NCBI GenBank assembly: GCA_964514515.1
Contig: CAZERK010000001.1
Span: 1 to 44,118, forward strand
Direction of reading: 5' to 3'
Length of the DNA stretch: 44,118 nucleotides
DNA from: an uncultured Planctomycetaceae bacterium
GTDB taxonomy: Bacteria > Planctomycetota > Phycisphaerae > UBA1845 > UTPLA1
The notes beneath the pieces were generated by a model. It was not told the origin of the DNA, ran no database searches, and saw only the letters and a program-made list of their open reading frames with translations. Position numbers and translations under genes: made by a program. Each line of letters starts with the position of its first letter. Position 1 is the stretch's first letter. Below are positions 3,740-40,872 of the stretch, piece by piece.

Positions 3740-3765
3740 GCGGACTCCTTTGATCCTCCAGACGT

Positions 3766-23280: not shown

Positions 23281-23368
23281 ACCAACCTCATCGGGCGCCG
23301 GGCGGTTACTGCACCGGCGCGATCGCTACCGAACGAACTGCGTGGAAACGCGGCCGGCGGCGGCGTTC

Positions 23369-24190
23369 CTACTTCTTCTTCTTCTCGTTCTTGTCGCCCG
23401 CGTCGTCGCTCTTGGCGACCGCGGCGGGCACGTTGCCGCCGCTCCAGGCCTCCGCGGCCCTGGAGATGCCGGCGGTTTCGCGGCTCCAAGCGAGCCGGAA
23501 CGTGACCAACGACACGCCGACCACGAGGGCAAGAATCACGAGCACCAGCGCCAGGCTCATGCCCAGCTTGTAGTCGACCTTGAGTTCCTGGTTGTGCTTG
23601 TACGCGTCGGGGAACATCTCTTTGCCGCGCGTGGTGGCATAAGCCGGCAGCCGCGTGAACAGCCGCCGCGTGTAGTCGCCGAGTTCCTGCGGGCGGTCGT
23701 GGAACTGGCCCTTAAAACCCAGCCGCAGGCAGATGAAGTACAGGTTGAGCTTTTCGGCGAGTTCGTACTTGTCGCGGCGGTCGCGGCGTTCGGCCAGCTC
23801 GTAGTCCTTCTGCAGCGTGTCGCAGTCCTCGAAGAACTTCTCGCCGCCGAGGGCCTCGATGTGGTTGAGCACGTCGGGGTCGGTCTCGAAGCGGTTGTCG
23901 AACCAGAAGTCGCGCCCGTCCCAGTCGGTGTTGAGCATCTTGTAGTCGAGGAAGTAGACCATCATCGCTTTGAGATGGTCCTCCCAGGCGCGCTGCGCGA
24001 GGGGATCGCGGCCGGCGATGTCGTCCGCGTCGCGCAGGGCGTTGAGCGCTTCGTAGCGCACCTGGTCCGGCGGCGGCAGCGTGCCCATCTTGGCCTGCCG
24101 CGCGAAGTTGATGGCGAAGTCGAAGATCGGCCAGCAGACCTCGGTGAGGCGCAGCCCGGCACCTTCATGGGGCTCGACGGCGGTCGTCAT
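23369..24190 (-). CDS. tssL: Type VI secretion membrane-complex protein TssL (DotU family), without a peptidoglycan-binding extension
   Basis: 273 aa. The DotU signature LNLYFICLRLGFKGQF is followed by one TM helix (LALVLVILALVVGVSLV) and a short Lys-rich tail. ATGA overlap with tssK (24187-24190). Confidence 0.85.
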   Translation of the reverse strand: MTTAVEPHEGAGLRLTEVCWPIFDFAINFARQAKMGTLPPPDQVRYEALNALRDADDIAGRDPLAQRAWEDHLKAMMVYFLDYKMLNTDWDGRDFWFDNRFETDPDVLNHIEALGGEKFFEDCDTLQKDYELAERRDRRDKYELAEKLNLYFICLRLGFKGQFHDRPQELGDYTRRLFTRLPAYATTRGKEMFPDAYKHNQELKVDYKLGMSLALVLVILALVVGVSLVTFRLAWSRETAGISRAAEAWSGGNVPAAVAKSDDAGDKNEKKKK

Positions 24191-25608
24191 CGGCTGGATC
24201 CCTTCAAGCAGACATACAGAGTCGGGCGGAACTGCTCCATCGCGGCGAGCTGTCCTTCGCGGATGCTCATGCGGATGCCGCGCTCCTGCTCACACTCCTG
24301 CCAGTAGTCGGTCCGGTCCGGACCAATCGTCTTGTCCACGCGGAAATAGTGCAGGCCCTGGCGGCGCGGCAGCGTGCCCGCAGGCGGGGCCTTCACCTGC
24401 AGCCGCAAGCCGCGCACCGCGATGTTGTGAATGCGCGGGGCGCGCTTGGGCGAAGCGAGCTTCATATCGAGCTTGCCGTAGACGTGCTGGTAGACCTCCT
24501 CGGTCTCCTGGTCGTCCACCCGCAGGCCCACGTACATGTCGAGGTTCTCGTCGATCCAGGCCCGGTCGAGCTCGACCTCCAGACCGTCTTGGCCGCGCTC
24601 GTCCTTCTTGCGGGCAAAGGGACGTTCGATGAAGGCCATCGGACGCATCGCGTCGAGCAGGACGAGCAGGCGGCGGCGCACGCGATCCAGGCCGTCCGCG
24701 GGTCGGTCGTGGTCGTAACTCGGCAGCGGCCCGGGCACGAGTTCGTCATGAAAGACGGAGAGCTGCCCCACCATGCGTGCGAGCACGACGAACATGTCGT
24801 ACGGGTGCAGCAGCGGGCTTTGCAGCAGGGCCCGCAGCTCGGCGCGCCCGGCGTTGAGGGCGTGCAGCTTGAGCAAGTGCTCGCTGTTGGCGGCCACGCC
24901 GTCCGTGAAGTTCATCCGCTGCTCGCGCGCCTCGCGGGCGAGGACCTCGTCCTTCGCCTCGACCTGGTCGGCGAGCGAGGTCACCAGCGCACTGAGGCCG
25001 CGATCGGCCTGCAGCGCGAGGAGCGGCCCGGCGCCGACTTCGTCCAGTTCGGGCGTCGCCCCGGGGCGGTCGGTGCGCTTCACGCGGCACAGGCGGACGA
25101 CCTCGAAGCCGGTCATGTCGTCGCCTTCAACGAAGAGCTTGCCGCGCATGCGCCGCACATAGAGCGTCTGCGGGTTCTCGCCGGTGTTCTCATCGCGGCG
25201 GGTCAGCGCCTGCGGCTCGTAGCGCGGGTTGCCGGGCGTGGCTTCCGGGCGTTCGAGCGAAACCGCGTTCGCCCGCACGTCCTGCATCTGCGGAATGCCG
25301 AGGTACAGATCGACGGCCCCCCCGCCGGTGCCGAGCGCCTTCTCGAAATTCAGCGGCGGGACCTCGGTGTTCTCCGGCACGCACAGCCAGGTGCCGTCCT
25401 TGAGCCGCGCCTGGCAGCGATCGACGCGCAGCGTGAAGTTCTCGAGCGGCTCCTTGGCGATCTGCAGTTCCAGAAAGCCCCACGCCAGCGGACGGGCGGC
25501 ATCGAGCGTCGTGCGCACGAGCGTTTCCACTTGGCGCTGGGCCGTCTGCAAGTGATGCGGCCGCAGGAACACGCCCTCGTACCAGTGGATTTCGTTCCAA
25601 AAGGTCAT
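24187..25608 (-). CDS. tssK: Type VI secretion baseplate protein TssK
   Basis: The ORF track gives 24187..25797. The internal ATG at 25606-25608 (GGAGAC upstream) yields MTFWNEIHWYEGVFLRPHHLQTAQRQ, the conserved TssK N-terminus (W-x-EG-x-FL-x-P-x-H-x-Q). The 63 upstream codons are Arg/Pro junk. Confidence 0.9.
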   Translation of the reverse strand: MTFWNEIHWYEGVFLRPHHLQTAQRQVETLVRTTLDAARPLAWGFLELQIAKEPLENFTLRVDRCQARLKDGTWLCVPENTEVPPLNFEKALGTGGGAVDLYLGIPQMQDVRANAVSLERPEATPGNPRYEPQALTRRDENTGENPQTLYVRRMRGKLFVEGDDMTGFEVVRLCRVKRTDRPGATPELDEVGAGPLLALQADRGLSALVTSLADQVEAKDEVLAREAREQRMNFTDGVAANSEHLLKLHALNAGRAELRALLQSPLLHPYDMFVVLARMVGQLSVFHDELVPGPLPSYDHDRPADGLDRVRRRLLVLLDAMRPMAFIERPFARKKDERGQDGLEVELDRAWIDENLDMYVGLRVDDQETEEVYQHVYGKLDMKLASPKRAPRIHNIAVRGLRLQVKAPPAGTLPRRQGLHYFRVDKTIGPDRTDYWQECEQERGIRMSIREGQLAAMEQFRPTLYVCLKGSSR

Positions 25609-25827
25609 ACGGCGAGGTCTCCACCGGGCGAGGCCGGGACACAAGGAGTGATACAGCGTGACCGGACGGGCGTGCGGCACCGACGTGCCGACACCGCGTC
25701 GCGCGTTACGCTGCCGCGGAACAAAACCAGAACTGAAACCGCACGGTCCACGGGCTTCCTTTCCCGGATACGAAGTCGCCGCACGGGGCGACGTCACGAA
25801 CGCGTGCGCTGCACACCGGGCGGAGCG

Positions 25828-26508
25828 TTACTCCGTCCCGTGCATCTTCCGCTCGGAAAGCACCTGAATGTATTGCGCCGCCTCGACGGGCTTGCTGTCG
25901 TCGACGCCGATCTTCACTTCGGTATCTGCAGCATACGCGCCCGGAGGATGGAACTTCGCCGGCGGCAGCGGCAGGACGCCCCCATCCTTGCCGATGAATT
26001 TCGGGAACACGTAGATCACGCCCCGCAGGTCGTGCAGGTCGCCCCACTTGTAGTCGAACGGGCCCTTCTTGATCGGCGTATCGCCGTCGAGGGCCGAGCC
26101 GCGGATCGCGTTGCCGATCTTGCGACCGTAGTAGGTCGAGTCGTTGGTGAGCACGAAGATCTGATTCTGCGGCAGGTTGAACTTGCCCGGATCGGTCGTG
26201 CCGGTCGTCGGGCGGCGATCGTACCAGTCCTTCACCGTGATCTTCGAATCCGGCTTGAGCAGCTCATTGCCGGGCTTGTCGAGATCCGGCGGATACACGC
26301 AGACGATCGTGAGTTCCAGCGGCTCGCCGGTGCGCTTCTCCGGCGGACGGTTGCCCTGCGCCCCCGTGTTGATGAAGCGATCCTGACGAATCGTGAGCGT
26401 GCGGCCGCAACCGGTCGCCGCGAGCGCGGCGGTCGCGAGAAGAAGGACGCTACCGGCGCGGAGGGTGGTAATGAGCTGGCGCGATAGACGCAGAGAAGGC
26501 AGATTCAT
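25828..26508 (-). CDS. tssJ: Outer-membrane lipoprotein in the tssJ slot (TssJ-like), 226 aa
   Basis: Internal ATG at 26506-26508, 2 nt after the stop of the upstream gene. MNLPSLRLSRQLITTLRAGSVLLLATAALAATGC is a signal peptide plus a lipobox-like A-T-G-C. The mature protein is beta-rich and lies directly upstream of tssK-tssL-tssM. The call rests on position and lipoprotein character, not on a motif I can verify. Confidence 0.55.
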   Translation of the reverse strand: MNLPSLRLSRQLITTLRAGSVLLLATAALAATGCGRTLTIRQDRFINTGAQGNRPPEKRTGEPLELTIVCVYPPDLDKPGNELLKPDSKITVKDWYDRRPTTGTTDPGKFNLPQNQIFVLTNDSTYYGRKIGNAIRGSALDGDTPIKKGPFDYKWGDLHDLRGVIYVFPKFIGKDGGVLPLPPAKFHPPGAYAADTEVKIGVDDSKPVEAAQYIQVLSERKMHGTE

Positions 26509-26510
26509 AG

Positions 26511-27689
26511 TCACACTCCGTGGGCGTAGGCTTCCGCAAGCTTCTGACTGCGCAGCTCGCGGATGTGCTGATGGAAGAGTTGATGCCCGTCGTCGCGAAT
26601 GAAATCCTTGACCTTGCGGTTCGGGTCGTTGCCCATCCCGACCGGGCCGCGCAGGTGCGTCTCGAGCTCCTGGGCGATGGACTCCAGCGCGCTGTCGCTG
26701 CCGAGAATGGCGGCCATGATCCAGCGCTTGAGACCGAGCAGGCGCATCTTGCACACGCCGGCCGGCTTGCCGTGCTCAGCATCGATGATCTCGCGGATCA
26801 CCTGGTTGAGATCCGGAGAGTGCGCGTAGACGTCCCAGGGCTTCGCGACCGTCTGGTTGTGCTTGGTAAAGCTGCCGAGGAACGGCGCAACCGCCTGGTC
26901 CAAATCGGCGACGAAACGCGTGAGTTCGATGACCGTATCGACGAGGCGTTCGGCTGCGGGCACGGGCGGGTTCTGGTTGCCCGGCGCGAGCGGCGGCTTG
27001 GCGCGTGCGAGGCGTTCCCACAACTCGCGCAGCACGATTTCGACGCCGCCGCCGGCGCCCTCCCGCGCGACGACAAGTTCGTTCTTGAGCCCCTCGATGA
27101 CCGCGTCTTTGTCCTTGCGCAACTGCTCGATATCGCCGCGCAGACGCTCGATCTCGACATTCTGCTCGCGGGAGCTTTCCGCCATGGCGTCGGTCCGCGA
27201 GGTATCGGCGGCGGCGCGCTCGGCACGCTGCAGCTTGATCGTGAGCGATTCGGCCTTGCTCTCCGCTTCGTGCAGCAGCGCATTCTTGGCGACGAGTTGT
27301 TCCTCGTATTCCGCGACCTGCTGTTGAGCGGTCTGCAAACGCGTGCGCTGATCGGCGACGATGCGGTCGAGTTCGGTCGCGCGCTGCTGCTCGGCTTCGA
27401 GTTGCTTGGCGCGGAGCGACAGATCCGCCTTGGTCGCGGCCAGCGTATCTTCGAGCGAGGCCTTCTCTTCCCCCAACCGCGTGGCCTTCTTGGAAAGGGC
27501 GTCGAGACGCTCGCGGTCGGCGCCGTCCCCCTTGGCGGCGGCTTGGTCGGCGAGCTCCGTCAGCAGCGCTGCGAGCACGCGGTAGCGCTGGGCTTCGGGC
27601 GCCTGCGCAAGCGCAGCGCGCACCGGCTCCAAGAGCGTAAGCGCGCCCGTGTCTGGTGCACTGTCCCGACGTTGTTCCGTCACGGGCAC
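26511..27689 (-). CDS. Coiled-coil protein (392 aa) of unknown family occupying the position that Fha holds in related T6SS loci
   Basis: GTG at 27687-27689 with GAAAGG upstream. Residues about 45-215 are heptad-like and E/K/Q/A/L-rich (KASLEDTLAATKADLSLRAKQLEAEQQRATELDRIVADQRTRLQTAQQQVAEYEEQL...). A C-terminal globular part of about 175 aa follows. I find no FHA signature. The stop lies 2 nt before the tssJ ATG (TGA-ct-ATG). Confidence 0.75.
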   Translation of the reverse strand: MPVTEQRRDSAPDTGALTLLEPVRAALAQAPEAQRYRVLAALLTELADQAAAKGDGADRERLDALSKKATRLGEEKASLEDTLAATKADLSLRAKQLEAEQQRATELDRIVADQRTRLQTAQQQVAEYEEQLVAKNALLHEAESKAESLTIKLQRAERAAADTSRTDAMAESSREQNVEIERLRGDIEQLRKDKDAVIEGLKNELVVAREGAGGGVEIVLRELWERLARAKPPLAPGNQNPPVPAAERLVDTVIELTRFVADLDQAVAPFLGSFTKHNQTVAKPWDVYAHSPDLNQVIREIIDAEHGKPAGVCKMRLLGLKRWIMAAILGSDSALESIAQELETHLRGPVGMGNDPNRKVKDFIRDDGHQLFHQHIRELRSQKLAEAYAHGV

Positions 27690-27921: not shown

Positions 27922-30900
27922 CTAGCGCGGCAGCACGCGCAGGACCGGACGGACTCCCGTCAGCTCGTCACCAAAACGAGCGTCACGAGCCTGCAACACG
28001 AGGGGGTTGCTCAGCCATTTCCACATTTCGGACGAATTTAGCGGCTTCTTGGGCGGTGGCGGCAGGATTGTCTCCTGCTCCCGAATCTTGCGCGTCACGC
28101 CGCCGCACGCGAGCGTCGCATCGGTACCCGCGCCGGTACACCACTCGCGCAGGCCGCCGAAGAGGTCGGCCGGTGCATTCGCCCCCCAGCGCAGCGCCGC
28201 CAACACCCACTCGTCAACGGTCGGCACGACTCGACCGAGTTGCGTCGCCGCCGCCGTCGCCTCCGCGAAAGCGCCGGATACGGATACTTCCTTCTCATCT
28301 ACGTAGTAGAGCGTCCACGGACGCTCCGGTGCGGCGGCCGTCTCCGTCAGGTGCGCAAGCGTCGCAGGCGGTGCGGCTTGGTCCGCCACGCTCTTCCACA
28401 ACCCGTCCTGAGGCGGAATCGACACGAGACGCAGACGGTTGCCCTGGCCGTCACGCAAGTTCGTCGGATAGCCGGAGACGGGATCGCGGTCGCTCTCTGC
28501 CGCGTAACCGCGCGTCGCCAGCGCCGCCTGCTGTTCGTCCCACGGCGGCGGCAGCAGCGTCGCCGACTTGAGCAGCGCGGTCGCATCGGCGTCATCGGGA
28601 AGGTTCGTCAGCAACGGCGTGACTTCGGCCAGACGCGGACGCCAGTCCGCCACCGCCTCGCCCCGCAGAGTCTTGTCTACGTCGCCACGCAGCACCTGCA
28701 CCACGGTCTTCAGCGACGCGCGAGCCGCATCCGCCAATTTCGCCAGCGCCGTCGCGTTGTCGGGCGACGGCCCCCAGCGCTCGCCACTGTGCTCCATGGT
28801 CAGGTCCTGGGCTACGGATTCGGCACCCGAGCGCAGGTTCACGCGGAGGGAGAAAGTCACGCGCTCGTCGCCGGCCGAACGTACGTTGGCGTACATCGCC
28901 GAGCCGGGAACCATCAGGTTGGCGACCACCGTCGAGGCTTGCGCCGCCAAGGGGTCTCCGCTCGGGCTCAACTCACGCAGCAGGTTCGCGTTGTCGGCTT
29001 TGGCACCGAAGCGCTCCGGCGCGGCCCCGATGTAGGCGGCGAATTGCTGAGTCCAATCGACCGTCTTCACTGGAGGCGGCTCGGGCGGAGGTTCCGGCTT
29101 GTCCGGCTCCTGCACGGCGACGGGCTCTGGCGGTGTCGGCGCCGTCGCAGTGGGTGGCGCAGAGTCGGCGGTGGTAGCGACGGGCGGGTTCACCGGCGGT
29201 GCGGGCTGCGGAGGCGGCGTGCCTCCACGCAGCGCGAAGAACAGGATCGCGGCCACTGCGGCGACCGCGGCAACACCTCCGCCAATGACGAACCCACGCC
29301 TGCTGCCCGCGGGACGCGGTTTCGCGGCCGCAGCTTTCTCTGTGGGCCGTTCTTCGGGCGTCGCGGCAGCCGGCTTCGGCGCCCGGACGGGCTTGGGCGG
29401 CGGCGGTGCGACCGGGGGCGGCGCGGCAGCCGACACGGCCGGCGCGCTGCCTGCAGCCGCTCCGAACTTCTGCTCCCACCCCGCGGGAAGCTCGTACACC
29501 AGCTTCGCGGGACTCCAGACCGCTCTGAGGACGAACGCCTCGCCGCTCTTGGGTTTGATATCGAAGCCAATCTCGGCGAGCGCGACCTTGCCCTGACGAG
29601 GAACCGTCACTTTTGCAGCGGATGGTGCGGCCTTGGCGACCGCCTTGATCTGCTCGCCCGCCGCTTCGCGCCAATGCGACTGCAGCTCGACGATGCGCTC
29701 GCGCAGATGCGTCTCGAACTCCGCGAGCGATTCGAGCGTCGCGCGGCCGGCGTCCTCGACGGTAACCGTCGTCGCGAAAATGACTTCGGGCTCGCCGCCG
29801 GCCGGATGCAGCGCGATTGCCACGTCGCCATCGAGCGTCGTCGGCAGTTCCGGCTCGGTGTGAACCGGCGTGAGCCGCACGCGAAGCACGTCCTTGTACG
29901 TCCGGGCTAGTTCGGAGCGGGCCACAAGGTCCTGCACGATGGCCGCGCCGGCCGCCTGCTTGGCCACGTCGGTGGCTTGCGCCACAAACGCCCGGCGATC
30001 GGCCGGCTCCCAGGTCAACGATTCCGGCAGCCACACCAACTCCAGCGGCCCGCGCCCCTCCGCCGCGTCCGGCCCCAGGAGCGCCAGCTCAGCGGTCACG
30101 CGCGGGCCCGGCTTTGCCATCTCCGCACGCACAGTCGCACGGGGGAACATGGTGCCCTGAAGCCACTTCTCGAACGTGCCAAGGCGGGATTTCTGCAGGT
30201 CCGGCAATTGCTCCAGCAGGCCAATCCCGATCTGTGTCGCGAAGGTCTCCTGCTCGCCGCAGAGCTGGACGCCGTCTTCGCGCACGCGGAAATCCAGTTC
30301 GCCGATCAGCGGCGGCGCGTCGAAACGCTCCCCTGCCGGCCGCAGGGCGACCCGCACGCGAGCCCGAGCGTCAGCGTCGATGTCCGGCGGCGCCCAGGTG
30401 ATGAATTCGACGGCCGTTTCGATGGCTTTCGACTGAACCAGCCCGGCCAGCTCGCCCTCCGCCAGCGGCTGGAGTACGCTGTCGGCCGCGACGCGCATGC
30501 TCTCGGTCAGCGCGTCGATGTTGGTGGCGGCGTCGTCGACGAGCCGGGTCCGGCAGATGAGCACGAGCGCGGCAGCCTCGTCTTTGAGCCCGGCGGGCCA
30601 GTGCTGCAGTTGCGGCTCCTGGTCGAGCACGTCCAGGGCCGCGTCCCAGCGCGTCTGCTCGATCAGTTCCTTGGCTTTGGCGACCCATGCCCGCGCCGCG
30701 GCGTGCTGGTCGGCCATCTCGCGACGGAGGCGGTCCTGCTGCTCCTGGTGGGCGGCGTACTCCTGCTCGACGGCCGTCACGGACGCCTGCAGGTCCTCCG
30801 GCCAACTCTCCAGAGGCGGCTTCTGCCCCAGCAGCTTGGCGACGCCGGACCAGTTGCGCGCGGCCGCCGTCTTCTGCAGGATCTTCAGCCACGACTGGGC

Positions 30901-32154
30901 CTTGCGCAGGCCCTGGCTCTGCGCGATCTTCGCCGCCAATGGTTCGAGCGCGGCCAGCACGTCCGGCGGCCAGGCGTCGACTTGCGGCTTTTCGCTGAGG
31001 AGGTTTTGGGCCTTCTCCCATTCGCCGGCGCTGACGGCGTTCTGCAGGCGGCCGAACCACTTGGCCACCGCCTGTAACTCCGCCTCAGCAGCGGCTTTGC
31101 GACCTTCCTCCGCCAGCCCCTCGCGGGCCCGAGTCTCGAGCGTGTGAGCCTGGGCACGCTGCTCGGCGGTCATGATCTCCAGCGGCGGGCGGAGATCGAG
31201 GACGGCATCAAGTTCGGCCCAGACGCGCCCGGCCAGCAGTTGTTCAACCTGGGCGAGCCAGCGCTGCACCTTTACGTTGTTCAGGTCGACAGCCGGCGCG
31301 ACGGCAAGCAAGCGCTGGGAGATCGCCGCGGCCGATGGGCGGTCACCGGGCAGGCGGGCCAGCATGGCCGTGACGAGTTCGAGCCACGCCCGGACCGAAG
31401 AATCGGACGATTGGGTCAGGGCATCCCGACTCGGCGCCGCGGGAATGCCGAACCCCATCATGCGGGCCATGTCGACGACGCGATGCGCCTCGGGCTCGAA
31501 GTACAGATACGGATGCACGTGCTCGGCGAACAGGGCCGCAACCATGCCCGCCGCGACGATGTCCGAGCCGGTCTCAAAGCTGGCGAGGGTTTCCGACCCG
31601 TACTTGTCCGGATCGATGTACGCGCACAGCCGATCGTCGCGGTCCACCACGCTCAGCGGCAGGACCTCCCAAGCCCCGGTGCCGGTGGCGTGCGGCCGAA
31701 CGGCCAGATTGAGGTACGGATCCACACCGAGGGTCTTGCAGACGGCCGGGGCAAAGCCGAAATCCGTCACGCGCGGCAGGCCGTCGACGCCCATCAGAAG
31801 AACGCCTGGGCACAGCCCGCCGTGGACGACCGTCCGCGCACCGCCGCCGCCATGGGCAGCGGCCAGGGCATCCGCCAGCGCCACGAGCAGGCGGACCAAC
31901 TCGGCCGGCTCCATGAGCGGCTTGGACGGATCAAACAGGTCGGCAGCATTCAGGGGCGTGGCCGGCTCGTGGGCGACCGACAACACTCCGTCTTGCTCTT
32001 CGAGTGGCCCGACAAAGCGCAGGATATAGGGTGAATTGGCCGCCAAGCGGTTCTGGGCGTGGACGGCATCCTGGAGCGCGTCCGCCAGGCGCGCCGTACG
32101 CTCGGCGTCGACTGTGGCGGGTGGCAGAATCAGGCGTCGAAATCCGTCAGACAT
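27922..32154 (-). CDS. Single-pass membrane protein (1410 aa): degenerate Ser/Thr-kinase-like (pseudokinase) domain, W-x12-W-x15-WP helical repeats, TM helix, Pro-rich linker, C-terminal FGE-sulfatase-like (TagR-like) domain
   Basis: The ORF track gives 27922..32358. I prefer the ATG at 32152-32154 (MSDGFRRLILPP), because the 68 upstream codons are Pro/Arg-rich; the start is uncertain (weak RBS). Kinase-like blocks: VVHGGLCPGVLL (in place of HRDLKPxN), RVTDFGFA, YIDPDKYG, DIVAAGMVAALF, LPGDRPSAAAISQRL. TM: GFVIGGGVAAVAAVAAILFFAL (29230-29295). C-terminus: YYVDEKEVS...GRVVPTVDEWVLAALRWG...LFGGLREWCTG...LACGG...TGVRPVLRV. Confidence 0.75.
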   Translation of the reverse strand: MSDGFRRLILPPATVDAERTARLADALQDAVHAQNRLAANSPYILRFVGPLEEQDGVLSVAHEPATPLNAADLFDPSKPLMEPAELVRLLVALADALAAAHGGGGARTVVHGGLCPGVLLMGVDGLPRVTDFGFAPAVCKTLGVDPYLNLAVRPHATGTGAWEVLPLSVVDRDDRLCAYIDPDKYGSETLASFETGSDIVAAGMVAALFAEHVHPYLYFEPEAHRVVDMARMMGFGIPAAPSRDALTQSSDSSVRAWLELVTAMLARLPGDRPSAAAISQRLLAVAPAVDLNNVKVQRWLAQVEQLLAGRVWAELDAVLDLRPPLEIMTAEQRAQAHTLETRAREGLAEEGRKAAAEAELQAVAKWFGRLQNAVSAGEWEKAQNLLSEKPQVDAWPPDVLAALEPLAAKIAQSQGLRKAQSWLKILQKTAAARNWSGVAKLLGQKPPLESWPEDLQASVTAVEQEYAAHQEQQDRLRREMADQHAAARAWVAKAKELIEQTRWDAALDVLDQEPQLQHWPAGLKDEAAALVLICRTRLVDDAATNIDALTESMRVAADSVLQPLAEGELAGLVQSKAIETAVEFITWAPPDIDADARARVRVALRPAGERFDAPPLIGELDFRVREDGVQLCGEQETFATQIGIGLLEQLPDLQKSRLGTFEKWLQGTMFPRATVRAEMAKPGPRVTAELALLGPDAAEGRGPLELVWLPESLTWEPADRRAFVAQATDVAKQAAGAAIVQDLVARSELARTYKDVLRVRLTPVHTEPELPTTLDGDVAIALHPAGGEPEVIFATTVTVEDAGRATLESLAEFETHLRERIVELQSHWREAAGEQIKAVAKAAPSAAKVTVPRQGKVALAEIGFDIKPKSGEAFVLRAVWSPAKLVYELPAGWEQKFGAAAGSAPAVSAAAPPPVAPPPPKPVRAPKPAAATPEERPTEKAAAAKPRPAGSRRGFVIGGGVAAVAAVAAILFFALRGGTPPPQPAPPVNPPVATTADSAPPTATAPTPPEPVAVQEPDKPEPPPEPPPVKTVDWTQQFAAYIGAAPERFGAKADNANLLRELSPSGDPLAAQASTVVANLMVPGSAMYANVRSAGDERVTFSLRVNLRSGAESVAQDLTMEHSGERWGPSPDNATALAKLADAARASLKTVVQVLRGDVDKTLRGEAVADWRPRLAEVTPLLTNLPDDADATALLKSATLLPPPWDEQQAALATRGYAAESDRDPVSGYPTNLRDGQGNRLRLVSIPPQDGLWKSVADQAAPPATLAHLTETAAAPERPWTLYYVDEKEVSVSGAFAEATAAATQLGRVVPTVDEWVLAALRWGANAPADLFGGLREWCTGAGTDATLACGGVTRKIREQETILPPPPKKPLNSSEMWKWLSNPLVLQARDARFGDELTGVRPVLRVLPR
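27925..28449 (-). other. FGE-sulfatase-like (SUMF1/TagR-like) periplasmic domain at the C-terminus of the 1410-aa protein
   Basis: The order and spacing of its blocks resemble the FGE-sulfatase family: (E)VS, LPT-x-(D/E)EW-x-x-AAR-x-G (here VPTVDEWVLAALRWG), G-x-x-(W)EW (here GGLREWCTG), a GG block, and a terminal G(F/V)R-x-V (here GVRPVLRV). Confidence 0.55.
31300..32037 (-). other. Pseudokinase domain of the 1410-aa protein (H-G-G replaces H-R-D at 31816-31824; DFG retained at 31756-31764)
   Basis: Direct reading of codons: GTC GTC CAC GGC GGG CTG TGC CCA GGC GTT = VVHGGLCPGV. No GxGxxG loop or VAIK-type Lys context is visible in the roughly 45 residues upstream. Confidence 0.65.
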
Positions 32155-32223
32155 CCGTAGCGACACTCGGTTTAGGTTACGGGCGGACCGGCCGGGTCCC
32201 CGCGGCGCGACAGTATCCCGTAA

Positions 32224-32239
32224 TTCGCGCGATCGCGAA
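32224..32239. promoter_or_regulatory. Palindromic element in the divergent T6SS / envelope-module intergenic region (candidate operator)
   Basis: TTCGCG-cgat-CGCGAA (32224-32239), containing the perfect 10-bp palindrome CGCGATCGCG (32228-32237). It lies about 70 nt upstream of the pseudokinase start. Confidence 0.35.
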
Positions 32240-32290
32240 AGGCGGTGCGGCGGAGGCGGCACGGCCGGGGGGGTGGCGGGCAGTTCACCC

Positions 32291-32319
32291 TTGACGCTAG
32301 GCAGGGGGTGGCGTAGCGT
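32291..32319 (+). promoter_or_regulatory. Sigma70-like promoter candidate for the plus-strand envelope module
   Basis: TTGACG (32291-32296), 17-nt spacer, TAGCGT (32314-32319), about 80 nt upstream of the ATG at 32400. Confidence 0.3.
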
Positions 32320-32399
32320 TAACGTGGGAAGGTTGGGCTTCGAGGACCAAACACACATCAGTACGGACCCCGGTAACTTCCCTAGCAGAGGAGTGTGCG

Positions 32400-32603
32400 A
32401 TGGGCCGAATGCGACTCCGATGGCGCTGGGTATATTCGCTGGCAGGTGCGGCGATCCTGCTGCAGACGACGACGTGTACGCTCAGCGACACGCAGACGCA
32501 GCAGCAGTTCGCCAGTCAGTTCCTGCTGCCACAGCTCGCCACCGCGTTTTCCGATCTGGTGTTCTTCGTGCTCGACAACGCGCTGGTACACATCACTACT
32601 TGA
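32400..32603 (+). CDS. Small exported protein (67 aa) with an N-terminal signal/anchor sequence followed by Cys
   Basis: ATG at 32400 with GAGGAG (32388-32393) 6 nt upstream. MGRMRLRWRWVYSLAGAAILLQTTTC, then 41 residues that are Q/T-rich followed by a hydrophobic/amphipathic stretch. GC3-rich codons. The lipobox is poor (T-T-T-C). Confidence 0.5.
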   Translation: MGRMRLRWRWVYSLAGAAILLQTTTCTLSDTQTQQQFASQFLLPQLATAFSDLVFFVLDNALVHITT

Positions 32604-32623
32604 GAGTGACCCCGGAGGACCTG

Positions 32624-32794
32624 ATGCGCAAGTTGCTTCGGATTCGGTGGCTTGTGTGCGGCGCGACTCTGCTCGCGCTCAGCAGTTGCGCCACCAGCCA
32701 GCAGTGGATGGACTTCGGTCGCACCGAGTTGGCCCGCGCCGTCGCGGACATTCTCGGGCGACTCTTCCAGCAGACCATCCAGGGCAGCACGTAG
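32624..32794 (+). CDS. Small lipoprotein (56 aa)
   Basis: ATG at 32624-32626 with GGAGGA (32614-32619). MRKLLRIRWLVCGATLLALSSC has a good lipobox (L-S-S-C). The mature peptide is 34 aa (ATSQQWMDFGRTELARAVADILGRLFQQTIQGST). This is the 3' end of track ORF 32036..32794, whose upstream part crosses the divergent intergenic region. Confidence 0.55.
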   Translation: MRKLLRIRWLVCGATLLALSSCATSQQWMDFGRTELARAVADILGRLFQQTIQGST

Positions 32795-32873
32795 GCACGC
32801 TCGCCCAGTCGACTAACCGAAGGGCGGCGACCTTGGCGAGTCTATCGCCGCGTTGCGCGGCGCGGGACGTGAC

Positions 32874-34850
32874 ATGAGCCCCAGCAAAACACTTCGCTTT
32901 GGCCTGTTCATCGCGATGACGGTCTTCGCCGGCGCCGCGCTCGCCCAAGAGCCCCCACCGCCCGAATCCGGCGCGGCGTTGGTCGAATTGAACCGGGCCA
33001 TTCGCGCCTACACGGCCGAAGACCGCGACACGGCGGCGCAGCTCCTCGAAGGTCTGCTCGCCCGCGAACCCACGGCCGAACTGCGTGTGAGCTGCTACTA
33101 CTACCTCGGCTTGATCGGTCTGGAGCGCGGCTTGGGCCATGCGGCCGCCGCCCAGATCGCCCGCACGCAGGAGAATCCGGAGCAGGCGACGGCGGAAGCC
33201 GGGCTCGCCCGTACGGAATTCGAGGCGGCACAAAAGCATTTCGAGGCGGTCGTGCAGCTCGCCGACCCGACCGCGGAAATCGTGTCCGCGGCGCTGATGC
33301 TGGGCATCTCCCAGCTCGCCAGCGACTTCCCGGAGGAAGCGTTGTCCGCCCGCAGCCTGTCAGAGCGCGCCGCCCAGACGCTGGCCCGCTACACCGGCGA
33401 AACGGACTACGGCGCGAAGGACCGTTACGGCTTTTTCTATCTCGCCGTGGCACGCTACCGCCTGGCCGACGACTACCGCGATCAGGCCAGTCGCCAGAAA
33501 GAGTACAAGGCGATGCTGGAGGGCGCGCAGGAAGCGCTCGATCGCGCCCAGACGTTGGCAGACGAAGACCTCGCGCTCGGCAAACTGACGCCCGTCGGCC
33601 TCGAGGCGTTCCGCACGGTCGTGGCCTACTACGAGGGGCTGCTGGCGATCGTGCGCAGCGACCATCCGGGGGCACGCAAGCTCTTCAGTGACGTCGCCAG
33701 CCGCGCCGAGGGCACGGACCTCGCCCGCAACGCCAGCGCCATCGTCAACCGCCTCGATGAAGTCGAAGCAACGAACCCGCCGCGCATCCAGTTGCCGGTG
33801 CCGGCGCCCATCGGGCCTTGGGAGTTCGACGCCCGCCTGCGCATCGGCAATGGCTACGACTCCAACGTCGTGCTGCTGGGCAAGGACACGACTCTACCGC
33901 GGAGCTATCGGCGGCAGGACGACTACTTCGCCGGCATTCACGCGGACTTCAATCTCAGCCGCTACATCCCGAAGTCGGAAGCCCCCTGGGTCGGCGAGAG
34001 CCTGACGGTCGGCATGGGCGGCGGCGTCAGCGCGACGTGGCAGCCGAACGTGACGCAGTTCGACGTCAACCGCTACCCGGGCCGCGCGTACGTGAACTGG
34101 CAGCCGATCCGCGACCTGTACTTCGGTCTGCAATACGAGTACTCGTACACGCAACTCGGACACGAACCGTACATCTCCAGCCAGCGGCTGTCGCCCGTCC
34201 TGTCGAAGATCTGGCGCACCAAGAGCACCAGCGGCACCGAGCTCGAGGCGGGGCGCACGGACGTGTACTACACGCACGACGAGCGCAACTATATGGATCG
34301 CCTAAGCGACGTCCGGCTGAACCGCGACGGCGTATACCAGGCGATCGGCGTGCAGCACACGTTCAACCTGTGGCGCAGCGAAGAACTGGCGTACATGCGG
34401 CCGTACTTCGATGCGCACGCCCGCGAGCGGACGCTATTCGGCAACGACTGGCTGAGCTTCACGCTGGGCTACGAGTACCGCGACGAGCAGACGGTCGGCA
34501 CGGAGTTCGACCTGTGCGGGCACGCCATGACGTGGGGGCTGAACGTGCCGCTGCCGTACCGGCTGGCGTTCCAGGCGCGCGGTGAGTTCTCGTGGGCGGA
34601 CTACCAGGCGGCGAGCCTGTTCGATTTCAGCCGCCAGGAACGCGCCGACTTTCTGCAGCGCTACGATCTGAGTGTGGTGTACTGGCTGATTCGCCGCGGC
34701 GAGGACGCGAACCTCCGCACGCTGGACGTCCGCTTGCGGACCGGCGTGGAATTCACGTTCCAGAACTCGAACATCTGGAACCGCCTCGGCGAGGACATCT
34801 ACGAATACGACCGGGCGATCTACGGCGTAACGCTGGAAGTGGACTTCTAG
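32874..34850 (+). CDS. Outer-membrane protein: signal peptide, roughly 300-aa TPR-like helical domain, C-terminal beta-barrel ending in Phe
   Basis: ATG at 32874 (the track start, TTG 32853, is also possible). MSPSKTLRFGLFIAMTVFAGAALA-QE is a signal peptide. The helical Ala/Leu/Glu-rich N-half has Y/L-spaced repeats. From PWEFDARLRIGNGYDSNVVLL onward there are alternating-hydrophobicity strands rich in Y/W/G/N. The terminal YGVTLEVDF is a typical OMP C-terminal signature. Confidence 0.75.
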   Translation: MSPSKTLRFGLFIAMTVFAGAALAQEPPPPESGAALVELNRAIRAYTAEDRDTAAQLLEGLLAREPTAELRVSCYYYLGLIGLERGLGHAAAAQIARTQENPEQATAEAGLARTEFEAAQKHFEAVVQLADPTAEIVSAALMLGISQLASDFPEEALSARSLSERAAQTLARYTGETDYGAKDRYGFFYLAVARYRLADDYRDQASRQKEYKAMLEGAQEALDRAQTLADEDLALGKLTPVGLEAFRTVVAYYEGLLAIVRSDHPGARKLFSDVASRAEGTDLARNASAIVNRLDEVEATNPPRIQLPVPAPIGPWEFDARLRIGNGYDSNVVLLGKDTTLPRSYRRQDDYFAGIHADFNLSRYIPKSEAPWVGESLTVGMGGGVSATWQPNVTQFDVNRYPGRAYVNWQPIRDLYFGLQYEYSYTQLGHEPYISSQRLSPVLSKIWRTKSTSGTELEAGRTDVYYTHDERNYMDRLSDVRLNRDGVYQAIGVQHTFNLWRSEELAYMRPYFDAHARERTLFGNDWLSFTLGYEYRDEQTVGTEFDLCGHAMTWGLNVPLPYRLAFQARGEFSWADYQAASLFDFSRQERADFLQRYDLSVVYWLIRRGEDANLRTLDVRLRTGVEFTFQNSNIWNRLGEDIYEYDRAIYGVTLEVDF

Positions 34851-34908
34851 CCGCCGCGCGGGCACCGGGGCGCTGCGCACGAGCAGGCGGTGCCGTCAGG
34901 AGCGGAGC

Positions 34909-35982
34909 ATGAACACGCGACAATCCTTGCGAACGGCGCTGGTGACCGGCATCTTGCTGGCCGGCGCGGGGGCCGCGGTCGCCCAGGAACTGCTCTCCGT
35001 GACCGGAGTCTCGCGCCGCGGAGCGGCTTTGTTCGAACCGGAAAGCGGCGAGGCCGTTCTGCTGTTGCCCGGCCGCGCTATCGCTCCGGGGTCGATCAAA
35101 GTCGAGGCGGATGCCCAACTCATGCTCTTCGAGCCGGCGGGAACGGTACTGGTGGCCATCGGCCCGGCTCAATTGGCAATCGCACGCGACGAGATCGGCG
35201 GCGGGGTCCAGATCGAACTCAAGCGCGGCCGCGTGGCCGTCGCAACGGACGACGCCGGGCGTGGCGTGACGCTGTTCGCCCAGTTGACCGATGCGGCCAA
35301 GACCGAAGTAGAACTGACGCCGGCGCCGGGGCACGTGTACGTGCAGCGCAGCGGCGAACGCGTCCGGATCGCGTATGCACCCGAAGGCGAAGGCAGCAGT
35401 CTCGACGTTCGCGTGAACGGCAACCCGGTCAATCTGGCTGCGGGGCAGGCACTGGTGGTCGCAGACGGCGGGCCGCAGCAGGAGGTCTTGGGCGACTGGT
35501 TGGGGCAGGAAGGCTTCACGCAGCCGTGGGGCCGCGAACTCGGCGTCGCCTCGGCGCAGGCCGCCCGGGCCGAGGTCGAGGCCAAGCTCTTCGACAACGT
35601 CATCACCTGGGATCGCTACGCGGGGGCCACGTACGTGGTGCAGCGCCTGCGCGAGCAGCGCTTCAACCTGGAGATTCGCGCCACGGTCCAGGCCGTCACG
35701 ACCGCCAACCGCTCCAGCCAGCGCGGCGGCGAAGTACAGACGGCGCCGTTCCCGGGCGCGAACGCGGTGCCGGTCATTTCGCCGGCAGCCGCCAGCGTGC
35801 AGGACCCGCACAACGTGGGGCAGAACTTGACGGCCATTCAGCTCAACAGCAATGCCGCTCGCCTGCTGGAGGCGACTGGCAGCCGCGGCCTGGGGTTCCA
35901 GGGTCTGCGGCTGTTGTCGGTGCCCGGCGTAACGAGCACAGGCACCCGGACGATCGGGCCAGCCGGTCTGGGTGCGCAGTAG
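34909..35982 (+). CDS. Secreted FecR-domain-like protein (357 aa)
   Basis: Signal peptide MNTRQSLRTALVTGILLAGAGAAVA-QE. The beta-rich pattern GSIKVEADAQLMLFEPAGTVLVAIGPAQLAI...IELKRGRVAV...VTLFAQL...VELTPAPGHVYVQRSGERVRIAY...VRVNGNPVNLAAGQALVV resembles the FecR sensor fold. No cytoplasmic anti-sigma segment or TM helix. Confidence 0.6.
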   Translation: MNTRQSLRTALVTGILLAGAGAAVAQELLSVTGVSRRGAALFEPESGEAVLLLPGRAIAPGSIKVEADAQLMLFEPAGTVLVAIGPAQLAIARDEIGGGVQIELKRGRVAVATDDAGRGVTLFAQLTDAAKTEVELTPAPGHVYVQRSGERVRIAYAPEGEGSSLDVRVNGNPVNLAAGQALVVADGGPQQEVLGDWLGQEGFTQPWGRELGVASAQAARAEVEAKLFDNVITWDRYAGATYVVQRLREQRFNLEIRATVQAVTTANRSSQRGGEVQTAPFPGANAVPVISPAAASVQDPHNVGQNLTAIQLNSNAARLLEATGSRGLGFQGLRLLSVPGVTSTGTRTIGPAGLGAQ

Positions 35983-36138
35983 CGTCCAACGAAATCGATC
36001 GCAGGGTCGCGCCAAACAGGCGCGGCGGTGCGGTCCGCAAGTGAGGATGGTCTGAGGCCGCAAGGGAGTGCGGACCGGCGGGGTTGGTGCACGTGGCTGC
36101 GCCCGCTCTCGGCCGCAATCCGTCGTGGAGGTCTGGTC

Positions 36139-40815: not shown

Positions 40816-40872
40816 AATGCCGCCACCCCGGCCGTACCGCGCCGCACCGGATCGCGCGCGGACGGACCGGTC

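What the first reader, a model, noticed from the sequence alone, without database searches (positions are those of the whole stretch)
27922..32154. PpkA-like membrane pseudokinase fused to a TagR-like FGE-sulfatase domain
**Seen:**
- The catalytic loop reads VVHGGLCPGVLL (H-G-G at 31816-31824). Hanks kinases have H-R-D-L-K-P-x-N, so the catalytic Asp, the Lys and the Asn are all substituted.
- DFG is retained (31756-31764).
- Only about 45 residues precede the C-lobe-like part, and they contain no Gly-rich loop or VAIK Lys.
- There is one TM helix (29230-29295).
- The last roughly 175 aa (27925-28449) carry FGE-sulfatase-like blocks.

**Established:** in P. aeruginosa H1-T6SS the kinase PpkA (periplasmic vWA domain) phosphorylates Fha1. 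As I recall, a separate periplasmic FGE-sulfatase-family protein, TagR, acts upstream of PpkA together with TagQ/S/T.

**Inference:** here the TagR-like sensor and the kinase scaffold form one polypeptide, and the kinase appears catalytically dead. That implies signalling by conformation or scaffolding rather than phosphotransfer. I am not aware of such an architecture being described for a T6SS.
Basis: partly seen in the sequence, partly recalled or inferred. Interest (0 to 1): 0.85.

Follow-up and report, generated by a model that had tools for sequence, protein, structure and literature searches.

The report
T6SS-linked membrane pseudokinase with FGE-like ectodomain
A 1410-residue single-pass membrane protein at the head of a type VI secretion gene cluster has a catalytically dead kinase domain inside the cell and a degenerate FGE-sulfatase-like domain outside. 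It belongs to an undescribed family, seen so far only in Phycisphaerae and related Planctomycetota, that probably controls or scaffolds the secretion machine without phosphorylation.

Summary
The gene at 27922-32154 (-) is real, and about 100 relatives were found, all from Phycisphaerae/Planctomycetota metagenome-assembled genomes (MAGs). A family profile aligns "VVHGGLCPGVLL" with "IVHRDLKPQNIL" of the kinase StkP (E 1.8e-6), so the catalytic Asp, Lys and Asn are replaced. DFG is kept and there is no Gly-rich loop. No relative has HRD in this domain, yet it is the most conserved part of the protein.

The FGE-sulfatase claim is only remotely supported. Pfam finds nothing in this protein. However, an AlphaFold model of the last 196 residues matches only FGE/EgtB-type structures, weak profile hits bridge to Pfam FGE-sulfatase, and sister proteins carry a clear FGE-sulfatase domain at the same position.

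Synteny ties the gene to T6SS. In 31 of 46 species-level loci it lies directly beside a coiled-coil protein, a lipoprotein in the TssJ position, TssK, TssL, TssM and a TagF-like protein. No active kinase, FHA or phosphatase was found among the window ORFs scanned.

Descent from an ordinary receptor kinase with an FGE-sulfatase ectodomain looks more likely than a TagR-PpkA fusion. Most likely it is a non-catalytic receptor or scaffold for T6SS assembly. I rate it a new variant of known kinds.

The parts
27922..32154 (-). Whole gene: 1410-aa single-pass membrane pseudokinase (stop codon 27922-27924)
   Evidence: ORF list. Identical 1410-aa database gene call and 51 homologs. Conserved N-terminal start.
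31285..32154 (-). Pseudokinase domain, residues ~1-290: beta3-like start, alphaC, beta4-5, and a full C-lobe to alphaI. It carries a ~25-aa conserved activation-loop insert (WEV...RDDR).
   Evidence: Pfam Pkinase E 0.051, below cut-off. NCBIfam MAD6 kinase 1e-5. Family profile vs StkP E 1.8e-6. hhalign vs a canonical kinase domain: prob 94.6, 217 columns. 15 of 26 relatives hit Pkinase. Most conserved region, 55% mean pairwise identity.
31816..31824 (-). H111-G112-G113 in place of the catalytic-loop H-R-D. The following LCPGV replaces LKPxN.
   Evidence: Coordinates. Residue-level alignment to StkP. Invariant in alignment A2. HGG, HGS or HAG in all relatives, never HRD.
31756..31764 (-). Retained D131-F132-G133 (DFG)
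   Evidence: D131 and F132 are invariant.
30460..31284 (-). Four ~65-residue helical repeats (residues ~291-565) with invariant W...W...P..WP
   Evidence: Consensus and invariant columns of A2: W299, W366, W395-P396, W422, W435, W490, W519. Fold not modelled.
29305..30459 (-). Cytoplasmic region, residues ~566-950, of unknown fold
   Evidence: No Pfam or PDB-sequence hit. Not a degenerate kinase (hhalign E 0.75).
29218..29298 (-). Single transmembrane helix (residues 953-979), preceded by RR and followed by a Pro-rich linker
   Evidence: Hydropathy scan. Homologs show a single TM at the equivalent place.
28765..29055 (-). Periplasmic NTF2-like domain (residues ~1034-1130)
   Evidence: AlphaFold model pLDDT 88.7. 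Foldseek hits to NTF2-like folds and the PBP2a N-terminal domain, E ~0.04.
28513..28758 (-). Periplasmic helical segment (residues ~1133-1214)
   Evidence: Secondary structure of the model.
27925..28512 (-). Degenerate FGE-sulfatase-like (C-type-lectin-like) domain, residues 1215-1410. Motifs: LVSxPP, RPWxLFYVD, LPTRDEW, GGLxEWC, WxCGG, FGDxLTGVR.
   Evidence: Model pLDDT 93.4. Foldseek top 50 are all EgtB, FGE, pFGE, SenA, OvsA or CalU17, best E 3.9e-4. Profile tail hits P0095 and P0100 overlap Pfam PF03781. 6 of 21 homolog ectodomains hit PF03781 weakly. No direct Pfam or PDB-sequence hit.
26511..27689 (-). 392-aa coiled-coil protein, the conserved immediate neighbour
   Evidence: No convincing Pfam hit. 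Homologs found only in Phycisphaerae-type MAGs. Adjacent to the pseudokinase gene in 31 of 46 loci.
25828..26508 (-). ~226-aa lipoprotein (lipobox LAATGC) in the TssJ position
   Evidence: Sequence and synteny. No Pfam hit. The TssJ role is inferred from position only.
17286..25797 (-). TssK (24187-25797), TssL/DotU (23369-24190), TssM (18502-23280) and a TagF-like protein (17286-18278)
   Evidence: Pfam. TagF_N hit is weak, E 0.021. Syntenic with the pseudokinase gene in distant relatives.
32400..42786 (+). Divergent operon: two tiny lipoprotein-like ORFs (32400-32603, 32624-32794), a 665-aa secreted TPR-like/barrel-like protein (32853-34850), a 357-aa protein, a 1595-aa TSP3/CARDB protein and a 637-aa protein
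   Evidence: ORFs. Pfam. Conserved next to the pseudokinase gene.

Best explanation
The gene encodes a T6SS-associated, receptor-like inner-membrane pseudokinase.

**Shown**
- It is a bitopic protein with a kinase-fold domain that lacks the catalytic Asp, Lys and Asn and the Gly-rich loop.
- It has about 650 further cytoplasmic residues and a periplasmic region made of an NTF2-like domain, a helical segment and a degenerate FGE-sulfatase-like domain.
- The gene is conserved beside the T6SS membrane-complex and baseplate genes across Phycisphaerae-type genomes.

**Inferred**
- The periplasmic domains bind an envelope-derived ligand or an outer-membrane partner, possibly products of the divergent lipoprotein/665-aa operon.
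- The signal crosses the membrane by a change in conformation or oligomeric state.
- The pseudokinase and W-repeat region then acts as a docking platform for the adjacent coiled-coil protein, TssK/L/M or the TagF-like protein. This licenses or positions T6SS assembly without phosphotransfer.
- In effect it would replace the TagR/PpkA/Fha threonine-phosphorylation pathway.
- It most likely descends from an ordinary kinase-TM-FGE-sulfatase receptor kinase that lost catalysis.
For: - **Dead active site.** Profile alignment places HGGLCPGV opposite HRDLKPQN. No relative has HRD in this domain.
- **Kinase fold retained.** The fold aligns from alphaC to alphaI (hhalign prob 94.6).
- **Selection on the dead domain.** The pseudokinase is the best-conserved region, at 55% identity against 26-43% elsewhere. 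That argues for a selected non-catalytic function.
- **Variable ectodomains on a constant module.** Relatives carry FGE-like, bona fide FGE-sulfatase, PKD/Big_9, CHB_HEX or Ig ectodomains. This is typical of receptors.
- **Synteny.** 31 of 46 species-level loci have the coiled-coil protein, the TssJ-position lipoprotein and TssK/L/M/TagF-like directly adjacent, either co-directional or divergent, down to 27-30% identity.
- **Sister with a clear FGE domain.** A pseudokinase with a Pfam-significant FGE-sulfatase domain also sits beside this module (L042).
- **No phosphorylation partners found.** The window's T6SS set is otherwise complete, and no FHA, PP2C or active kinase turned up among the ORFs scanned.
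- **Precedents.** TagR is an FGE-sulfatase domain protein acting on PpkA's periplasmic domain (PMC7253367; PMC6082577). The membrane pseudokinase YukC is central to T7SSb (bioRxiv 10.1101/2020.05.09.085852).
Against: - There are no experimental data, and no binding partner or ligand is known.
- I could not model the cytoplasmic part, so the state of the ATP pocket is inferred from sequence only.
- The invariant DFG Asp leaves room for nucleotide or metal binding.
- In some close relatives (L001, L003/L017, L015, L008) the gene is not next to T6SS genes, while the divergent operon is kept in the first four. L008's contig is too short to show it.
- The ORF scan for FHA, PP2C or a kinase covered only the large ORFs of a 44-kb window. 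A partner kinase could be encoded elsewhere.
- Tandem pseudokinase-plus-active-kinase relatives exist, so the module can work with a kinase.
Confidence: 0.5

Rival explanations
1. It is a constitutive structural subunit of the Phycisphaerae T6SS membrane complex. It would be analogous to the membrane pseudokinase EssB/YukC of T7SSb and would have no sensing or signalling role.
For: The gene is fixed next to the TssJ-position lipoprotein and TssK/L/M in most loci. The pseudokinase domain is strongly conserved. YukC provides a precedent. TssM here is atypically long and has only an IcmF_N Pfam hit, which hints at a modified membrane complex.
Against: Ectodomains differ widely between relatives while the cytoplasmic module stays constant. 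This fits receptors better than a fixed structural subunit. Some genomes keep the gene away from the T6SS cluster. All 13 core Tss functions appear to be present without it.
Confidence: 0.22
2. It is still an enzyme. A non-canonical active site would use the retained DFG Asp and invariant family-specific residues (H111; R172-D173-D174-R175 in the activation-loop insert). That site would carry out phosphotransfer or another nucleotide-dependent reaction on a T6SS component.
For: D131 and F132 are invariant, and the activation-loop insert is highly conserved and charged. From general knowledge, some proteins called pseudokinases retain activity (for example WNK, CASK, SelO).
Against: The Gly-rich loop and beta1-beta2 are physically absent. 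The candidate beta3 Lys is Pro in this protein and is not invariant. There is no conserved alphaC Glu. The catalytic Asp and the Mg-binding Asn are both replaced family-wide. No FHA-domain substrate or phosphatase was found in the locus.
Confidence: 0.1
3. Its primary partner is the divergent operon (small lipoproteins, the 665-aa outer-membrane-like protein and the giant TSP3/CARDB surface protein). It would regulate or anchor a cell-surface adhesin system, and the T6SS proximity would be secondary.
For: The divergent operon is kept next to the gene even where T6SS genes are not adjacent (L001, L003, L015, L017). A 665-aa-like gene also follows the pseudokinase gene in many distant loci.
Against: T6SS adjacency extends to the most distant T6SS-type relatives (27-33% identity), where most of the divergent operon is no longer detectable. 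The MAG behind L001 encodes the coiled-coil T6SS neighbour elsewhere in its genome (P0106 and P0002 share the same locus-tag prefix). The two links are not mutually exclusive.
Confidence: 0.13

Closest known systems
PpkA / TagR (TagQRST-PpkA-Fha1-PppA threonine phosphorylation pathway of the P. aeruginosa H1-T6SS)
   Same: Both are encoded in a T6SS locus and are bitopic inner-membrane proteins with an N-terminal cytoplasmic kinase-fold domain and a periplasmic sensor part. An FGE-sulfatase-type periplasmic module is involved, since TagR1 is annotated as an FGE-sulfatase domain protein (PMC7253367). A TagF-like gene is present.
   Different: The kinase domain here lacks the Gly-rich loop, the catalytic Asp, Lys and Asn. 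The FGE-like module is fused rather than a separate protein. No Fha or PppA was found in the window. There are ~650 extra cytoplasmic residues. Sequence relatedness to TagR or PpkA specifically was not tested.
Bacterial receptor Ser/Thr kinases with a C-terminal TM helix and FGE-sulfatase ectodomain (e.g. the 'Proteo1' family, bioRxiv 10.1101/2025.01.12.632604)
   Same: The domain order is the same: kinase fold, TM helix, FGE-sulfatase-type ectodomain. This is the likely ancestral architecture.
   Different: Those are canonical active kinases. This family has lost the catalytic residues and the first two beta strands, gained a long cytoplasmic insert, and in this subfamily the FGE domain has degenerated below Pfam detection. 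This family is T6SS-syntenic.
EssB/YukC, membrane pseudokinase of the type VIIb secretion system (bioRxiv 10.1101/2020.05.09.085852)
   Same: Both are single-pass membrane proteins with an N-terminal cytoplasmic pseudokinase fold that serve a protein secretion machine non-catalytically.
   Different: The secretion system differs (T7SSb, Firmicutes), as do the size and the ectodomain. No homology beyond the kinase fold was tested. YukC is a core structural subunit, whereas this protein looks accessory.
Seven bacterial pseudokinase families of the bSTK atlas (CP1, DYD, ActPs1-3 including M. tuberculosis MviN, DLHK, GLW)
   Same: All are conserved bacterial Hanks-type pseudokinases with substituted catalytic-triad residues and presumed scaffolding roles.
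   Different: As far as the text I read shows, none is described with an HGG catalytic loop plus retained DFG, a T6SS association or an FGE ectodomain. The present family is known only from MAGs and mostly falls below Pfam's Pkinase cut-off, so it was probably not sampled.
Tandem pseudokinase-kinase proteins (JAK JH2-JH1 type arrangement)
   Same: Class C relatives (P0046-49, P0052) carry this HGG pseudokinase N-terminal to a canonical kinase domain in one cytoplasmic chain.
   Different: The window protein and all T6SS-adjacent relatives examined lack the second, active kinase domain. The analogy is architectural only.

Membership tests
Hanks-type protein kinase fold (Pfam Pkinase PF00069) | Significant profile similarity over the catalytic domain | tested here: met
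   Family profile vs StkP E 1.8e-6. hhalign vs a canonical kinase domain: prob 94.6, E 6.5e-8, 217 columns. 15 of 26 relatives hit Pkinase at E<=0.01. The window protein alone scores only 13.4 bits against a cut-off of 31.7.
Hanks-type protein kinase (active enzyme) | Gly-rich loop (GxGxxG) and beta1-beta2 | tested here: not met
   The protein starts at about the beta3 position. The conserved start is shared by 50+ homologs, and the 68 upstream in-frame codons contain no GxGxxG.
Hanks-type protein kinase (active enzyme) | VAIK Lys paired with alphaC Glu | tested here: not met
   The window protein has ILPP where most homologs have ILKP, and the Lys is not invariant. The alphaC region has a conserved Gln34 and no conserved Glu.
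Hanks-type protein kinase (active enzyme) | Catalytic loop HRDxKxxN (Asp base, Lys, Asn) | tested here: not met
   HGGLCPGV aligns with HRDLKPQN. H111, G112 and G113 are invariant. No relative has HRD in this domain.
Hanks-type protein kinase (active enzyme) | DFG Asp | tested here: met
   D131-F132-G133 aligns with DFG of StkP, and D131 and F132 are invariant.
FGE-sulfatase domain (Pfam PF03781) | Match to the Pfam model above its cut-off | tested here: not met
   No hit for the window protein even at E<=10. Six of 21 close homologs hit weakly, best E 0.0027.
FGE-sulfatase domain (Pfam PF03781) | FGE-type (C-type-lectin-like) fold | tested here: met
   All top-50 Foldseek PDB hits of the domain model are EgtB, FGE, pFGE, SenA, OvsA or CalU17. 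Best E 3.9e-4, prob 0.98, but TM only 0.35-0.43.
FGE-sulfatase domain (Pfam PF03781) | Homology through intermediate sequences | tested here: met
   The domain profile hits P0095 (E 1.5e-5) and P0100 (E 6.6e-4) among 1.84 billion proteins. Their matched regions overlap Pfam PF03781 hits. Direct hhalign to four bona fide family FGE domains is weak (E 0.04, 38 columns).
Formylglycine-generating enzyme (active FGE) | Catalytic Cys pair C-terminal to the GGS motif | tested here: not met
   By inspection of alignment A3, the only conserved Cys are in EWC and WxCGG (C1339, C1350). No conserved Cys follows the CGG motif. The position of the FGE cysteines is from my own knowledge.
PpkA (T6SS threonine-phosphorylation-pathway kinase) | Active kinase, with Fha substrate and PppA phosphatase in the locus | tested here: not met
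   The catalytic residues are absent. No FHA or PP2C Pfam hit appeared among the window ORFs scanned. The scan was not exhaustive for small ORFs.
PpkA (T6SS threonine-phosphorylation-pathway kinase) | Encoded in a T6SS cluster as a bitopic protein with the kinase domain on the cytoplasmic side | tested here: met
TagR | Specific sequence relatedness to TagR; separate secreted periplasmic protein | not tested
   No TagR sequence was on hand. Only the shared FGE-sulfatase annotation is documented (PMC7253367). Here the module is fused to the membrane protein, not separate.
EssB/YukC (T7SSb membrane pseudokinase) | Homology beyond the generic kinase fold; T7SSb context | not tested
   Used only as a functional analogy. 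The context here is T6SS.

The most novel reading that the evidence does not exclude
Phycisphaerae T6SSs would be controlled by a phosphorylation-independent transmembrane pathway. An outer-membrane/lipoprotein module (the divergent operon) would report an envelope or contact cue to the FGE-like/NTF2-like ectodomain. The dead-kinase domain would then act as an allosteric switch that recruits the coiled-coil protein and the TssK/L/M baseplate-membrane complex. This would be a previously unrecognised class of T6SS trigger replacing PpkA/Fha/PppA, and the first pseudokinase receptor assigned to a contractile injection system.
Probability: 0.3. Interest if true: 0.8.

Novelty: new variant of a known kind. 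Interest (0 to 1): 0.6.

Why it matters
- **T6SS regulation.** Post-translational control of T6SS firing is understood mainly through the PpkA/Fha/PppA phosphorylation pathway and TagF in a few Proteobacteria. A class-wide, T6SS-syntenic receptor whose kinase domain is dead by design would show that the same receptor-kinase architecture can control or build the machine without phosphotransfer.
- **Bacterial pseudokinases.** It would add a well-defined family, with an HGG catalytic loop and a retained DFG, to the very short list of bacterial pseudokinases with an assignable cellular role.
- **Annotation.** It gives a handle for annotating the T6SS loci of Planctomycetota, which are essentially undescribed. 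The family members found here that carry a source name are mostly labelled hypothetical protein.

Tried and rejected
- **Direct FGE detection.** Pfam and NCBIfam scans of the whole protein and of the C-terminal 292 aa found no FGE-sulfatase hit.
- **Profiles against PDB sequences.** Profiles of the periplasmic region (A1) and of the last 196 aa (A3) found no FGE hit at E<=10.
- **jackhmmer and hhalign linking.** jackhmmer from a bona fide family FGE domain did not reach the window-type C-terminus. hhalign between the two aligned only the LPTxxEW motif (E 0.04).
- **Foldseek with the whole periplasmic model.** It returned only NTF2-like hits and hid the C-terminal domain. A domain-only model was needed.
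- **Residues 566-950 as a decayed second kinase domain.** Rejected (hhalign E 0.75).
- **A longer N-terminus with a hidden N-lobe.** Rejected. The 68 upstream codons have no kinase motifs, and homologs share the short start.
- **Hsu et al. 2009 (the TagR paper).** It is not held in the library.
- **The 392-aa neighbour.** A homolog search gave only hypothetical proteins.
- **Promoter and terminator scans.** They gave one weak promoter-like site at 27865-27837 (-) and nothing in the divergent intergenic region.
- **Cytoplasmic model.** Both structure-prediction jobs went on the periplasmic part, so the cytoplasmic 950 residues were not modelled.
Full report
**1.

The minus-strand ORF 27922..32358 has 1478 codons from its first ATG. 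The start at 32154 (MSDGFRRLILPP...) gives 1410 aa. That product is identical to a database gene call (P0001) and matches the conserved start 'M..RRVILKP' of 51 homologs. The 68 in-frame codons upstream contain no kinase motifs.

H111-G112-G113 maps to 31816-31824 and D131-F132-G133 to 31756-31764. The only strongly hydrophobic segment is residues 953-979, about nt 29218-29298. The plus-strand ORFs overlapping the gene are the usual by-product of 68-70% G+C.

**2. The N-terminal domain is a kinase fold with a dead active site**

Pfam Pkinase hits the window protein only weakly (E 0.051, 13.4 bits against a cut-off of 31.7). NCBIfam gives a kinase family at 1e-5. At the family level the signal is clear:

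- 15 of 26 full-length relatives hit Pkinase at E<=0.01.
- A profile of 26 relatives finds the solved kinase StkP at E 1.8e-6.
- hhalign against a canonical kinase domain aligns 217 columns from alphaC to alphaI (prob 94.6, E 6.5e-8).

The residue-level alignment places 'vvHGGLCPGvlL' opposite 'IVHRDLKPQNIL' and DFG opposite DFG. The catalytic Asp, the catalytic-loop Lys and the Mg-binding Asn are therefore all replaced.

The chain begins at about the beta3 position, so beta1, the Gly-rich loop and beta2 do not exist. Most relatives have 'ILKP' where the VAIK Lys would fall. This protein has 'ILPP', and that column is not invariant. No conserved alphaC Glu is present; Gln34 is conserved instead.

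'C(A/G)FIDPDKY' aligns with the 'GTPGYIAPE' P+1/APE segment. This reveals a ~25-residue conserved activation-loop insert carrying invariant W162-E163 and R172-D173-D174-R175.

Every one of about 100 relatives inspected has HGG, HGS or HAG in this domain, never HRD. The domain is nevertheless the most conserved part of the protein, at 55% mean pairwise identity against 26-43% elsewhere. That pattern marks a pseudokinase with a selected non-catalytic function.

**3. The rest of the protein**

- **Residues ~291-565.** Four ~65-residue helical repeats with invariant Trp and Pro (W...W...P..WP).
- **Residues ~566-950.** No detectable relatives of known function, and not a decayed kinase.
- **After the TM helix.** A Pro-rich linker leads into a confidently modelled periplasmic region (pLDDT 88.7).
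- **Periplasmic domains.** An NTF2-like domain (Foldseek E ~0.04 to NTF2-like folds and the PBP2a N-terminal domain), a helical segment, and a C-terminal alpha/beta domain.

**4. The FGE-sulfatase claim holds only as remote homology**

Direct sequence tests fail:

- No Pfam hit, even at E<=10.
- No PDB-sequence hit for the domain profile.
- No jackhmmer link to bona fide FGE domains, and only a marginal hhalign link (E 0.04).

Four independent lines nevertheless agree:

- A domain-only AlphaFold model (196 aa, pLDDT 93.4, pTM 0.90) returns, in its Foldseek top 50, only members of the FGE-sulfatase superfamily: EgtB, FGE, pFGE, SenA, OvsA and CalU17. The best E is 3.9e-4 and probability 0.98, although TM-scores are modest at 0.35-0.43.
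- The domain profile searched against 1.84 billion representatives finds only 59 proteins. The weak tail, P0095 (E 1.5e-5) and P0100 (E 6.6e-4), carries Pfam FGE-sulfatase over the matched region.
- Six of 21 close homologs hit PF03781 weakly.
- Sister proteins with the same N-terminal pseudokinase have a clear FGE-sulfatase domain at the C-terminus (E 1e-12 to 1e-18).

The conserved motifs LVSxPP, RPWxLFYVD, LPTRDEW, GGLxEWC, WxCGG and FGDxLTGVR correspond, from my knowledge of the family, to the FGE-sulfatase blocks. No conserved Cys pair follows the GGS-like motif, so the domain is a binding module rather than an FGE enzyme.

**5. Genomic context**

The window holds a complete T6SS on the minus strand:

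- VgrG, ClpV, TssG, TssF, TssE, Hcp, TssC, TssB and TssA.
- A weak TagF-like protein, then TssM, TssL and TssK.
- A lipoprotein in the TssJ position and a 392-aa coiled-coil protein.
- The pseudokinase gene as the first gene of the array.

No FHA, PP2C or active kinase was found among the ORFs scanned.

A scan of one genome per species found 46 loci, all from Phycisphaerae/Planctomycetota MAGs. By tblastn, 31 of them have the coiled-coil protein immediately adjacent, most of them with the TssJ-position lipoprotein and TssK/L/M/TagF-like alongside. The arrangement is either co-directional, as here, or divergent, and persists down to 27-30% identity (examples).

The 15 loci without adjacent T6SS genes break down as follows:

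- About six are uninformative because the contig ends at or near the gene.
- Six are a separate class (class C) in which the HGG pseudokinase is followed in the same chain by a fully canonical kinase (GRGGMGEV, VALK, H(R/G)D, DFG). This class, seven loci counting L007, is never next to T6SS.
- Three are close relatives that are informative negatives (L008, L015, L017; L001 and L003 from the protein look-ups behave the same way). L015, L017, L001 and L003 keep the divergent operon. The MAG behind L001 still encodes the coiled-coil neighbour elsewhere (same locus-tag prefix).

One T6SS-adjacent relative (L042, 1729 aa) combines the pseudokinase with a Pfam-significant FGE-sulfatase domain in a single ORF.

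On the other side of the gene lies a divergent operon. It encodes two tiny lipoprotein-like ORFs, a 665-aa secreted TPR-like/barrel-like protein, a 357-aa protein, a giant TSP3/CARDB protein and a 637-aa protein. This operon is also conserved.

**6. Mechanism**

Shown:

- A bitopic protein with a dead kinase fold.
- A large conserved cytoplasmic scaffold.
- A variable ectodomain, which in this subfamily is NTF2-like plus FGE-like.
- Tight synteny with T6SS membrane and baseplate genes.

Inferred: it is a receptor-like scaffold that couples a periplasmic or outer-membrane cue to T6SS assembly by conformation or recruitment rather than phosphotransfer (confidence about 0.5). Constant cytoplasmic modules with swapped ectodomains favour a receptor over a fixed structural subunit.

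Rivals:

- A structural role like EssB/YukC of T7SSb, at about 0.2.
- Residual non-canonical catalysis using the retained DFG Asp, at about 0.1.
- A primary role with the divergent surface-protein operon, at about 0.13.

**7. Comparison with known systems**

TagR1 is annotated as an FGE-sulfatase domain protein (PMC7253367). It is thought to activate PpkA through PpkA's periplasmic domain (PMC6082577).

However, kinase-TM-FGE-sulfatase is already a known receptor-kinase architecture (Proteo1 family, bioRxiv 10.1101/2025.01.12.632604). Descent from such a kinase with loss of catalysis is more parsimonious than a TagR-PpkA fusion. Specific relatedness to TagR or PpkA was not tested.

In the text I read, none of the seven bacterial pseudokinase families in that atlas is described with an HGG loop plus a retained DFG or with a T6SS link. 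Full-text searches for T6SS with pseudokinase, Phycisphaerae or Planctomycetes found no description of this protein.

**8. Verdict**

The finding is a new variant of known kinds: a receptor kinase with an FGE ectodomain, a T6SS accessory regulator, and a secretion-system pseudokinase. It defines an undescribed, lineage-wide family. I score interest at 0.6. The anatomy and synteny are solid and would surprise T6SS specialists moderately, but function rests on inference in uncultured organisms.

Noticed in passing
window 32400-42786 (+): A divergent operon encodes two tiny lipoprotein-like ORFs (32400-32603, 32624-32794), a 665-aa protein, a 357-aa protein, a 1595-aa TSP3/CARDB protein and a 637-aa protein. 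The 665-aa protein has a signal peptide, a TPR-like N-terminus and a barrel-like C-terminus ending in F. The operon is conserved next to the pseudokinase gene even where T6SS genes are not, so it may be an outer-membrane partner module.
   Followed up: partly
window 30460-31284 (-), residues ~291-565: Four ~65-residue helical repeats with invariant W...W...P..WP lie between the pseudokinase and the rest of the cytoplasmic region. No known family matched them.
   Followed up: partly
window 28765-29055 (-), residues ~1034-1130: A periplasmic NTF2-like domain (weak Foldseek hits to the PBP2a N-terminal domain, MTB12 and designed NTF2 folds) sits upstream of the FGE-like domain.
   Followed up: partly
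P0046-P0049, P0052; loci L007, L033-L035, L038, L046, L053: These relatives carry the HGG pseudokinase followed, in the same cytoplasmic chain, by a fully canonical Ser/Thr kinase domain, which is a JAK-like tandem. This class has other ectodomains (CHB_HEX, Ig, Calx-beta) and is never adjacent to T6SS genes.
   Followed up: partly
L042 9989-15178 (+): A 1729-aa ORF combines the HGG pseudokinase with a Pfam-significant FGE-sulfatase domain. It is divergently transcribed from the coiled-coil protein, the TssJ-position lipoprotein, TssK, TssL, TssM and the TagF-like protein.
   Followed up: yes
window 26511-27689 (-) and 25828-26508 (-): A 392-aa coiled-coil protein and a ~226-aa lipoprotein (lipobox LAATGC) always travel with the pseudokinase gene and TssK. 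Neither has a Pfam family. The lipoprotein occupies the TssJ position.
   Followed up: partly
window 18502-23280 (-): TssM is unusually long (1592 aa) and only its IcmF-related N-terminal domain is recognised by Pfam. The periplasmic part may be divergent in this lineage.
   Followed up: no
window 1736-3997 (-): A 753-aa ORF immediately downstream of VgrG has no Pfam hit and is a candidate effector or adaptor.
   Followed up: no
window 17286-18278 (-): A 330-aa protein after TssM has only a weak TagF_N match (E 0.021), but the gene is conserved at this position in related loci. It would be a TagF-like repressor in a locus without a recognisable Fha.
   Followed up: partly
window 27837-27865 (-): A sigma-70-like promoter match (TTGCCG-17-TATAGT) lies in the 232-bp gap between the pseudokinase stop codon and the coiled-coil gene. 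It suggests that the downstream T6SS genes may have their own promoter.
   Followed up: no
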